DNA from: Tubiluchus corallicola
Taxonomy: Eukaryota > Animalia > Priapulida
DNA length: 64,000 bases
NCBI GenBank assembly: GCA_030141605.1
Contig: JAQGDQ010000173.1
Span: 248,001-312,000, forward strand
Direction of reading: 5' to 3'
Shown: positions 36,701 to 63,536 of the stretch, piece after piece
Layout of the letters: each line of letters starts with the position of its first letter
Numbering within the stretch: position 1 is the first letter of the stretch
Made by a program: the position numbers and the translations under genes
The notes under the pieces: generated by a model
What the model saw: the letters and a program-made list of their open reading frames with translations, nothing else
Database searches by the model: none
Told to the model about the DNA's origin: nothing

Positions 36701-38126
36701 TCTATTTACATACCATTTACTGGGTTTCAACTAAAGTTAATGAGCTGTAACAGGAGTCCTGGCTATTGTATGTTGGTCAGTAGATGTTCAGGTCTCATAG
36801 TCTGCTGGTGAATAATGTAATTGGTGAATTTCATAATGTAGTTTGTCAAGGTATGTTGCTTTAAATTATATTTTTGTGGTTTTTTTCTGATTTGCTAAAC
36901 TGAGAGGTTAGTGCTTTAATTTTTGTTATAGAGTGTTAAACTTTAGTGAATTATTAAGTTAAACTTCCCTAAATGTTGCTTTTACTTTTATTTCAGAGTG
37001 CAATTTATGTTGAAACCCCCCCCCCCCCTCTACACCGGCTTCACTTCTTTTTTTTTGACAATAAAGGAATCAACCTGCCTGTATCAAAGTGTTCATCATT
37101 TTTATTGGGTTACAACATGCAGACGGACAAACTGAACAAAACATGCATGAGCCGCTACTGGTTCTAACTACAGATTACTATTAAGTTGAGGTCAAACTTA
37201 GTATGAAATGGCACACAAATCATCTTCCAGGACACGTGGTTATATTATTGTAGCTTGTTGTCATTTAGAGTAAGAACTTGTGACAATTTCGACAGTTTCA
37301 ACTCTAAATTGAAAGTACATATATTTTTTAAAACGTTTTTGGGAATTGTTTTTAATTTGACTTTATTTTGACTATTCTAAGTTTATACTACATCTCTGAA
37401 GTAACATAGTGTGTGTAAATAGACATCAACCTATAAAAAAGTAAAATTTAAACCTAGATGAAGAAAAGAATTTCTGCTACTTTTTCTTAATTAAACAGGT
37501 AACAAAGGAAGAAAATGGCAGACTGGGCTACATGAATTTAACAATTTAGGACTTACCCGCGTTCAGAACATATTGTGGGTCTTCTCAGGGAACGACGTTG
37601 TTGAGTCTCGTGCTTCCGAGCGAAACGAAACAACAGAACGAGGAAAATGTGCACAGGATAGATGATACTGACACTCTCAATAACTATGCAAAAACACCAG
37701 AAACACCAGATGTGAACAGGTAAGATGAAAATGTAAAATTTATTGGTAATCATTAAACAATGCTGTATCAACGCATTTAACTCAGTCCTATGACACTGTA
37801 AAGATTACTAACAAATAATGTGCAGAAACGATACTGATTCGTCAAAACTTACCCACCATGACAGGCACTATAGAAAATTGTATGTTGCTAAATGCTACTT
37901 GATCTTCGGGATTGTCAGTGGGAATGCCAAAAAACATGATGTGCGTGAGCATTGTTGTGAGAAGCAGTGATAATACACATGTAGCTCGCTGAAAAGGAAC
38001 GTAATGTGAATGATCACTATTGTAAACAGAAGTGATAAAGCACCTGCACACACAGATGCAGGTCGTTGAAAAGGAACATAATGTGCATGATCACTGTTGT
38101 GAAAACATGTGATAACGCGCACGCAT

Positions 38127-38181
<55 letters not shown>

Positions 38182-61600: not shown

Positions 61601-63536
61601 CTGTAATTAAATGTTAATCAGGTTACGACTGTGAATGCCTGGGCTCTTGATTGAGCTAGGATTCCACCCAACACGTTTGATACACAACCCATCACCTCCC
61701 TGTAATCAAATGCTAATCAGGTTACGACTGTGAATGCCTGGGCTCTGGATTGGATGAGGACTCCACTCAACACGTTTGATACACAACCCATCACCTCCCT
61801 GTAATCAAATGTTAATCAGGTTACAACTGTGAATGCCTGGGCTCTTGATTGGATGAGGACTCCACCCAACACGTTTGATACACAACCCATCACCTCCCTG
61901 TAATCAAATGTTAATTAGGTTACGACTGTGAATGCCTGGGCTCTTGATTGGACGAGGACTCCACCCATGATACACAACCCATCACCTCCCTGTAATCAAA
62001 TGTTAATCAGGTTACGACTGTGAATGCCTGGGCTCTTGATGGGATGAGGACTCCACTCAACACGTTTGATACACAACCCATCACCTCCCTGTAATCAAAT
62101 GTTAATCAGGTTACGACTGTGAATGCCTGGGCTCTTGATTGGGCGGGGACTCCACTCAACACGTTTGATACACAACCCATTACCTCCCTGTAATCAAATG
62201 TTAATTAGGTTACGACTGTGAATGCCTGGGCTCTTGATTGGACGAGGACTCCACCCATGATACACAACCCATCACCTCCCTGTAATTAAATGTTAATCAG
62301 GTTACGACTGTGAATGCCTGGGCTCTTGATTGGGCTAGGACTCCACTCAACACGTTTGATACACAACCCATCAACTCCCTGTAATCAAATGTTAATCAGG
62401 TTACGACTGTGAATGCCTGGGCTCTTGATTGGACGAGGACTCCACCCAACACATTTGATACACAACCCATCACCTCCCTGTAATCAAATGTTAATCAGGT
62501 TACTATTGTGAATGCCTGGGCTCTTGATTGGTTGAGGACTCCACTCAACACGTTTGATACACAACCCATCACCTCCCTGTAATCAAATGTTAATCAGGTT
62601 ACTATTGTGAATGCCTGGGCTCTTGATTGGGCGAGGACTCCACTCAACACGTTTGATACACAACCCATCACCTCCCTGTAATCAAATGTTAATCAGGTTA
62701 CTATTGTGAATGCCTGGGCTCTTGATTGGTTGAGGACTCCACTCAACACATTTGATACACAACCCATCACCTCCCTGTAATCAAATGTTAATCAGGTTAC
62801 TATTGTGAATGCCTGGGCTCTTGATTGGTTGAGGACTCCACTCAACACGTTTGATACACAACCCATCACCTCCCTGTAATCAAATGTTAATCAGGTTACG
62901 ACTGTGAATGCCTGGGCTCTTGATTGGATGAGGACTCCACTCAACACGTTTGATACACAACCATCACCTCCCGTAATCAAATGTTAATCAGGTTACGACT
63001 GAATGCTCCTTGATTGGATGAGGACTCCACCCAACACGTTGATACACAACCATCACCTCCTGAACAAAACAGGTTACACTGTGAATGCCTGGGTTTGAGA
63101 ACTCCCAACACGTTGATACACAACCCATCACCTCCCTGTAATCAAATGTTAATCAGGTTACGACTGTGAATGCCTGGGCTCTTGATTGGACGAGGACTCC
63201 ACCCAACACGTTTGATACACAACCCATCACCTCCCTGTAATCAAATGTTAATCAGGTTACGACTGTGAATGCCTGGGCTCTTGATTGGATGAGGACTCCA
63301 CTCAACACGTTTGATACACAACCCATCACCTCCCTGTAATCAAATGTTAATCAGGTTACGACTGTGAATGCCTGGGCTCTTGATTGGACGAGGACTCCAC
63401 CCATGATACACAACCCATCACCTCCCTGTAATCAAATGTTAATCAGGTTACGAGTGTGAATGCCTGGGCTCTTGATTGGATGAGGACTCCACCCAACACA
63501 TACGATACACAACCCATTACCTCCCTGTAATCAAAT
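61543..63536. repeat. 99-bp minisatellite, ~20 copies, made of the acceptor plus first ~57 nt of exon 61471-61600
   Basis: Minus-strand unit atttgattacag|GGAGGTGATGGGTTGTGTATCAAACGTG...CAAGAGCC caggcattcacagtcgtaacctgattaac. Confidence 0.96.

What the first reader, a model, noticed from the sequence alone, without database searches (positions are those of the whole stretch)
37853..63536. Recurrent splice-junction-seeded minisatellites: introns built from tandem copies of their own splice sites
Seen: at least four young arrays in one gene (99, 50, 71 and 48-bp units, ~20-35 copies each) have units that straddle an exon/intron boundary. So do one decayed array (38.0-38.7 kb) and one 2-copy duplication (34.85-34.98 kb). 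Each unit is unique to its junction. In all four young arrays only the copy abutting the exon keeps the ORF; reading into any other copy hits an in-frame stop within a unit. A second candidate gene (1067-1830) shows the same layout. Inference: this is a mode of intron growth by junction amplification, tolerated through exon definition. It creates banks of decoy splice sites that could tune productive versus NMD-bound splicing as a function of copy number, or seed new exons and introns.
Basis: partly seen in the sequence, partly recalled or inferred. Interest (0 to 1): 0.88.

Follow-up and report, generated by a model that had tools for sequence, protein, structure and literature searches.

The report
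Splice-junction "mirage" repeats in polycystin gene
In an animal's polycystin-1-like gene, four short DNA pieces that straddle predicted exon-intron borders have been copied head-to-tail 20-36 times into the introns; this repeat type is already known from lancelets and a few human genes and is likely tolerated because splicing would use only the copy next to the exon.

Summary
A 24-exon polycystin-1-like model on the minus strand reads 1,881 codons with no internal stop. Four of its 14 long minisatellites (99, 50, 71, 48 bp; 21-36 copies) straddle a splice junction, as do a decayed array and a two-copy duplication; five are acceptors, one a donor. DNA contigs show the 99- and 71-bp arrays in two studies, plus structural alleles, one joining the donor and acceptor arrays directly. 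The second locus (1067-1830) is not confirmed. These are "mirage" minisatellites, known from amphioxus (PMC3087553) and human F7, CBS and IFI6 (PMC1557585), where distal sites are mostly silent; this scan noted the same on other genomes. Enrichment is weak: 4 of 14 against 1.8 expected, P=0.09. The stop codons are near chance. No RNA covered the exons tested, so the decoy/NMD idea is untested. Small new points, both post hoc: all four arrays end 16-28 nt off a whole unit (P=0.002), and the 99-bp unit holds an inverted copy of its flank, hinting at template-switch seeding.

The parts
26632..61600 (-). Polycystin-1-like (PKD1L) gene, 24 predicted exons in the window, 5' end beyond the model; GPS, PLAT, TM and PKD-channel regions
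   Evidence: 1,881 codons, no internal stop
61543..63537 (-). 99-bp acceptor mirage array, 20.7 copies; 41 nt intron side + first 58 nt of exon 61471-61600; part of the unit is an inverted copy of the far flank
   Evidence: head-to-tail joins in DNA contigs of X1, X2, X3
61471..61600 (-). Predicted exon whose acceptor and first 19 codons are the last array copy
55823..57585 (-). 50-bp donor mirage array, 35.7 copies; last 42 nt of exon 57544-57706 + 8 nt of intron
   Evidence: unit in X1 and X2 contigs
57544..57706 (-). Predicted exon (aligns to Ptychodera polycystin-1-like 2, E=8e-4) whose donor is the first array copy
55566..55822 (.). 257-bp unique spacer between the donor and acceptor arrays of one intron; a contig in sample S1 joins the two arrays without it
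53958..55565 (-). 71-bp acceptor mirage array, 22.7 copies, with a 212-bp higher-order period; only 4 nt of exon in the unit
   Evidence: X1, X2, X3 contigs, X3 joins the array to the exon
53819..53961 (-). Predicted exon downstream of the 71-bp array
   Evidence: frame continuity
39164..40603 (-). 48-bp acceptor mirage array, 30.6 copies; 11 nt of exon; many units also carry a GTAAGT donor 14 nt after the AG
   Evidence: not tested in other DNA
39067..39174 (-). Predicted exon with the conserved 'HLWLSVF...FTRVQ' stretch
   Evidence: (E=8e-6)
37931..38700 (-). Decayed ~65-bp acceptor array derived from the start of exon 37853-37988, with a (CA)n tract inside
34822..34983 (-). Two-copy duplication (spacing 77-85 nt) spanning the acceptor of exon 34774-34849; intron part 98% alike, exon part more diverged
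1067..1830 (-). 60-bp array, 12.6 copies, with a donor-like motif; no exon or gene shown, status open

Best explanation
These are 'mirage' minisatellites: short duplications that took in a predicted splice junction of a polycystin-1-like gene in a minisatellite-rich genome, were likely expanded by ordinary repeat turnover, and are likely harmless because splicing would pair the site nearest the exon's other end. Shown: the arrays, their overlap with the modelled junctions, an intact reading frame only through the exon-abutting copy, presence in DNA of two studies, and structural alleles. Inferred: seeding by a replication or repair slip (template switching with filler DNA for the 99-bp unit), expansion and homogenisation by unequal exchange or slippage, and silence of distal sites through exon definition (acceptors) or 5'-to-3' scanning (donor). 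Any rare distal use would give a premature stop and probably NMD, as a by-product, not a regulator.
For: Structure matches the description of mirages in PMC3087553, section 16, and of F7-type VNTRs in PMC1557585. The gene model is intact. Ten of 14 arrays in the gene touch no junction, and they lie no closer to exons than chance (median 188 against 232 nt, P=0.40). Four of 14 against 1.77 expected, P=0.088. Decoy sites are neither purged nor specially kept: AG or GT is lost in some copies and drifts to GC in 8 of 35. Higher-order periods (212, 290 bp), a decayed array and a two-copy seed show a birth-growth-decay series. The arrays are real: head-to-tail loose ends for the 99-bp unit in X1, X2 and X3; the 71-bp unit in X1, X2 and X3, circular and joined to the exon in X3.
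Against: Counts lean above chance: 5 of 15 (P=0.033), 6 of 16 (P=0.012) and 5 acceptors of 16 against 1.07 expected (P=0.003), though the two added cases were found by looking at junctions. All four junction arrays end 16-28 nt off a whole unit while 11 of 12 other arrays end within 14 nt (exact P=0.002, post hoc), which suggests they are not born quite like the others. Use of the proximal site was not observed in this organism. In human IFI6 and CBS two pseudo-sites are used besides the true one (PMC1557585).
Confidence: 0.68

Rival explanations
1. Acceptor regions are a real hotspot for seeding minisatellites: template switching near intron 3' ends makes an X-Y-X duplication with filler Y, which then expands. 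The arrays are still neutral, but the birth process is biased.
For: 5 of 6 echoes are acceptors; 5 of 16 against 1.07 expected. All 4 junction arrays have 16-28 nt present only inside the array. In the 99-bp unit this part matches the reverse complement of the touching flank at 12 of 14 nt (P=0.0017, one of 10 tests), and in the 48-bp unit at 7 nt (P=0.048). The far-end 99-bp acceptor scores higher (8.9) than the exon-abutting one (3.7), as expected if the far end keeps the ancestral context.
Against: One gene, post hoc tests. 5 of 6 acceptors alone is P=0.12, and 3 of 14 by the unbiased list is P=0.056. No inverted match for the 71-, 50- or 60-bp units; by eye their far edges look like a decayed copy (71) and a 13-nt deletion (50).
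Confidence: 0.22
2. The arrays are functional decoy banks: copy number tunes how much transcript goes to premature-stop isoforms and NMD.
For: Most copies keep the splice dinucleotide and score like the true site. Every distal read-in meets a stop. The three young array acceptors are among the weaker ones in the gene (leave-one-out 4.0, 3.5, -0.6; P=0.028, post hoc). Some distal use is reported for IFI6 and CBS (PMC1557585).
Against: Retention of sites follows from young, homogenised repeats. Stops are near chance. The weak-acceptor trend fades with all five sites (P=0.051) and is absent by pyrimidine content (P=0.66). [quoted passage not shown] Amphioxus mirages are reported not to disturb splicing.
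Confidence: 0.07
3. The arrays are assembly artefacts, or the gene is a relaxed pseudogene.
For: A stretch of the 99-bp array near 62940-63135 has scattered small deletions that look like noisy consensus.
Against: Head-to-tail joins and unit variants stand in independent DNA contigs of two studies; the 1,881-codon frame has no stop.
Confidence: 0.03

Closest known systems
Amphioxus 'mirage' minisatellites (Adh3, globins BflGb6 and BflGb9, troponin C, PGBD5). Seen: PMC3087553 passages and all of section 16; one passage of PMC3902484. The original Adh3 paper (Canestro et al. 2002) was not held and not read.
   Same: Tandem copies of an intron-exon boundary, at acceptors or donors, units of 10-160 bp, most keeping AG/GT, concerted evolution, differences between haplotypes, gene left intact; proposed there as a route to intron gain.
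   Different: More copies here (21-36 against 3-6 in BflGb6), six junctions in one gene, one intron made almost wholly of its own donor and acceptor copies, and an inverted-flank filler in one unit. Normal splicing was checked by RT-PCR there, not here. The host's phylum was not determined.
Human junction-spanning VNTRs: F7 intron 7 (37 bp), IFI6/6-16 intron 2, CBS intron 13, LMNB2, PDGF intron 4. Seen: 12 passages of PMC1557585.
   Same: First monomer spans the exon-intron boundary and repeats the donor up to 25 times; the 50-bp array here has the same layout.
   Different: Those listed are donor arrays, one per gene; here five of six cases are acceptors. F7 site choice was tested experimentally.
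[quoted passage not shown] Seen: 9 passages of PMC4974935.
   Same: A duplicated piece made of an intron 3' end plus an exon start carries its splice signals with it.
   Different: No new intron or exon is needed or shown here; the frame is complete with the arrays treated as plain intron.

Membership tests
Mirage minisatellite | Tandem unit spans an exon-intron boundary of the host gene | tested here: met
   Overlaps of 58, 42, 4 and 11 nt with modelled exons; echo test. Exons are predicted, not RNA-confirmed.
Mirage minisatellite | Many but not all copies keep AG/GT | tested here: met
   AG 19/20, 23/23, 25/30; GT 27/35 plus GC 8/35
Mirage minisatellite | Unit length within the reported 10-160 bp | tested here: met
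   48-99 bp against PMC3087553
Mirage minisatellite | Concerted evolution inside the cluster, edges less homogenised | tested here: met
   85-93% neighbour identity, higher-order periods; in the window the exon-abutting 99-bp copy differs at 3-8 of 58 nt from the 12 ungapped other copies listed. No tree was built.
Mirage minisatellite | Length or structure differs between haplotypes | tested here: inconclusive
   Structural alleles seen (spacer missing in an S1 contig); copy number cannot be read from contigs
Mirage minisatellite | Normal splicing is not disturbed | not testable with these tools
   No RNA holder listed; the intact frame is only consistent with it
Mirage minisatellite | Somatic instability (reported for Adh3) | not testable with these tools
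   Needs tissue-level reads
F7-type donor VNTR | First monomer holds the true donor; identical pseudo-donors follow | tested here: met
   50-bp array, 35 donor copies located
F7-type donor VNTR | Only the most upstream site(s) used | not testable with these tools
   No RNA
Intron gain by tandem duplication (Rogers model) | A new intron or exon formed from the duplicate | tested here: not met
   The frame closes without any extra exon; micro-exon-like signals exist in the 99- and 48-bp units but use is not shown
Polycystin-1-like (PKD1L) gene | GPS, PLAT, polycystin domain and PKD channel in order | tested here: met
   Pfam PKD_channel E=7.5e-37, Polycystin_dom 1.4e-18, GPS 5.9e-4 just under its cut-off; collinear tblastn to P0001 and P0002

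The most novel reading that the evidence does not exclude
Intron 3' ends are a hotspot where template switching creates an X-filler-X duplication across the acceptor, so the exon ends up using a newly assembled branch-point region while the ancestral acceptor context is pushed to the far end of the array; later expansion and deletion can leave an intron built only of its own donor and acceptor copies (as one S1 contig suggests), and the array can feed variant codons back into the exon.
Probability: 0.2. Interest if true: 0.58.

Novelty: new member of a known kind. Interest (0 to 1): 0.3.

Why it matters
The class is known, so the locus adds an example, though a dense one. It is a ready-made test of 3' splice-site choice: 20-30 near-identical acceptors stand upstream of the one that keeps the frame, where a simple first-AG scan would fail, and natural alleles differ in structure. 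If the acceptor bias and the filler signature hold genome-wide, they would address the origin of mirages, which PMC3087553 calls unclear. For annotation, such arrays will mislead gene predictors and short-read assemblies.

Tried and rejected
No whole genome is held, so no genome-wide enrichment test was possible. No RNA holder listed; the one guessed-RNA run, X6, covered neither exon in 60709-61641, which is no evidence either way. X3 had no cover on the spacer or the 50-bp unit, and X5 gave one low-depth contig: not used as evidence of absence. Contig depth sums were not used as copy numbers. A frameshift that I suspected by eye in exon 32825-33004 is not there. Two exon edges were one base off and fixed; reran the 14- and 16-array nulls with the fixed edges and gave the same values, while the 15-array value comes. 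Dropping the two arrays with transposon-like flanks gives 4 of 12, P=0.052. Non-junction arrays are not closer to exons than chance. Weak acceptors as a precondition: marginal by a small matrix, absent by pyrimidine content. Stop codons as a designed feature: rejected. The second locus as a gene: no support found; I ran no protein search on it and laid no reads on it. The host phylum was not settled: best named hits are 25-41% identical. Paper searches listed no genome-wide test of junction enrichment and one search found no paper with all five acceptor-array terms; the library lacks most subscription papers, so this is not proof of absence. PMC10078293 (10 passages) gave nothing on junction-spanning units. 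(template switching) was seen as a listing only; that mechanism is cited from general knowledge. No supplements were read; Additional file 4 of PMC3087553 (mirage alignment) may bear on whether filler DNA occurs in amphioxus mirages.

Full report
What the window holds. Tandem Repeats Finder lists 48 rows, with 14 long minisatellite arrays inside one gene on the minus strand; they make 13.5 kb of its 37.4 kb. The gene is polycystin-1-like: Pfam finds the PKD channel and polycystin domain in the last exon, and tblastn of two homologues aligns collinear exons from 61 kb to 26.6 kb. I set exon edges by AG/GT(GC) and phase; the 24 exons read 1,881 codons with no internal stop. The model is predicted, not RNA-confirmed. 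The host is an animal; its phylum was not determined.

The observation. Four arrays overlap exons: 99 bp (58 nt of exon, acceptor 61600), 50 bp (42 nt, donor 57544), 71 bp (4 nt, acceptor 53961) and 48 bp (11 nt, acceptor 39174). AG is kept in 19 of 20, 23 of 23 and 25 of 30 located copies; the donor is GT in 27 and GC in 8 of 35. Reading in from any distal copy meets a stop; only the exon-abutting copy is open. A decayed array of about 65 bp and a two-copy duplication span the acceptors at 37988 and 34849. A test of all 47 junctions for an echo in the adjoining intron flags these 6 at the floor P=0.005 and two more at P=0.01 with far lower scores. The 60-bp array at 1067-1830 has a donor-like motif, but only 6 nt of putative exon lie in its flank, so the second gene is not confirmed.

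Is it real DNA? One search listed 6 runs, none on record as RNA holding the gene. On 60709-61641, contigs of X1 and X2 (sample S1) and X3 (S2, another study) carry loose ends that are the next or previous 99-bp unit (motifs located). On 55495-55872, X1, X2 and X3 hold the 71-bp unit, X3 as a circular unit contig and as a 442-nt contig running into the exon; X1 and X2 hold the 50-bp unit. S1 could be related to the source of the window, but it differs from the window at several sites in all contigs; S2 is a separate study. Two structural variants appear. In S1 a contig joins the 71-bp array at 55543 directly to a 50-bp unit, without the 257-bp spacer, while the window's form is also present at about single-allele depth; a paralogous copy cannot be excluded. 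In X3, 107 bases are replaced so that the non-junction 42-bp array begins 6 nt after the donor at 60864. The 48-bp array was not tested in other DNA.

More than chance? I collapsed every array to one unit and asked how often a unit of that length, placed anywhere not wholly exonic, would straddle a junction. Expected 1.77 of 14, observed 4, P=0.088. Adding the decayed array gives 5 of 15, P=0.033; adding the duplication 6 of 16, P=0.012; acceptors alone 5 of 16 against 1.07, P=0.003. These larger counts are inflated, because decayed or two-copy repeats away from junctions were not counted. Five acceptors among six is P=0.12. So the data allow a roughly two-fold excess but do not establish it. 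The stops are unremarkable: shuffling the intronic part of each unit gives a stop in 0.6, 0.78, 0.58 and 0.27 of cases.

How the arrays began. All four junction arrays end 16-28 nt short of a whole unit, while 11 of 12 other arrays end within 14 nt of one (exact P=0.002; 0.004 against the 10 in the gene; post hoc; the 60-bp array was left out and also shows 24 nt). For the 99-bp unit the part found only inside the array begins with 12 of 14 nt matching the reverse complement of the flank that touches the far edge (P=0.0017, one of 10 tests); the 48-bp unit shows 7 nt (P=0.048); the other three show nothing. An inverted local copy at a duplication join is what template switching or polymerase-theta repair leaves (general knowledge; seen as a listing only). 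If so, the far copy keeps the ancestral acceptor context (score 8.9) and the exon-abutting copy (3.7) depends on filler. This is inference from one or two units.

How splicing copes (inferred). For the donor array the true site is the most upstream one, which is what F7 minigenes select among identical sites (PMC1557585, passages). For the acceptor arrays the true site is the last one, nearest the exon's donor, which fits exon definition rather than first-AG scanning. Distal use would give a premature stop. The 48-bp unit carries GTAAGT 14 nt after the AG in many copies, and the 99-bp unit a GT 4 nt after it, so micro-exons are possible on paper; none is needed by the frame. The three young acceptors score low in leave-one-out (P=0.028) but the trend is marginal with all five and absent by pyrimidine content.

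What is known. PMC3087553 (section 16 read) describes minisatellite-like duplications of intron-exon boundaries in amphioxus globins, names them mirages after the Adh3 work, reports normal splicing, haplotype differences and concerted evolution, and proposes them as a source of new introns. PMC3902484 (one passage) adds PGBD5 and troponin C. PMC1557585 lists human F7, IFI6, CBS, LMNB2 and PDGF. I reached these papers before seeing earlier notes of this scan, which report the same class in sea urchins, annelids, abalone, elephant shark and another polycystin gene; those notes are unchecked and are not counted as support. One of them prompted the acceptor-only test.

Verdict. A real and unusually dense set of mirage minisatellites in an intact gene: a new member of a known kind. 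The regulatory reading is untested and unlikely on precedent. The parts worth following are the possible acceptor bias with a filler signature and the allele whose intron is nearly all junction copies. Interest 0.30.

Noticed in passing
window 55543-55822; runs X1, X2: A contig in sample S1 joins the 71-bp acceptor array straight to a 50-bp donor unit, so that allele or copy lacks the unique spacer and its intron would be almost wholly junction copies.
   Followed up: partly
window 60751-60857; run X3: X3 lacks these 107 bases, so the non-junction 42-bp array starts 6 nt after the donor at 60864.
   Followed up: no
window 61568 and 61594: In X1, X2 and X3 the exon-abutting 99-bp copy carries the array-consensus letters where the window differs (one would change Thr to Ser), as expected if the exon start is homogenised with the array; S1 also has an allele of this exon with 8 differences in 48 nt.
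   Followed up: partly
window 55507-55560; run X5: One low-depth contig (3.7) matches the 71-bp unit at 48 of 54 nt with loose letters resembling a diverged neighbouring unit: perhaps an older version of the array.
   Followed up: no
window 48040-51054 and 52157-53150 (minus): The polycystin gene has a second PLAT-like unit before the GPS (three exons; weak tblastn to PLAT) and a 994-nt cysteine-rich exon with no Pfam hit.
   Followed up: no
window 32825 and 28142 (minus): Two predicted GC-AG introns in the gene.
   Followed up: partly
window 24640-25032, 30583-31338, 31979-32423: These arrays sit in or beside dispersed repeats with copies at 32478-32639, 36369-36510 and 24556-24647: transposon-associated minisatellites, unlike the junction arrays.
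   Followed up: partly
window 10179-11183 (minus): 334-codon frame like the C-terminal zinc-finger/endonuclease part of an R2-type retrotransposon (weak Pfam zf-RVT and Hjc hits; the R2 label is from recall).
   Followed up: no
window 14011-14173: Degenerate interstitial TTAGGG tract, 27 copies.
   Followed up: no
window ~7340-9500 (minus) and 15618-15881 (plus): By eye, exons of a C1q-like gene and a cysteine-rich astakine- or colipase-like exon (no Pfam hit for the latter; labels from recall).
   Followed up: no
window ~3420-3700 and ~12780-13080: By eye, two similar stretches in opposite orientation, perhaps duplicated first exons or element ends.
   Followed up: no
window 62940-63135: Copies of the 99-bp unit with many small deletions, possibly noisy assembly consensus.
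   Followed up: no
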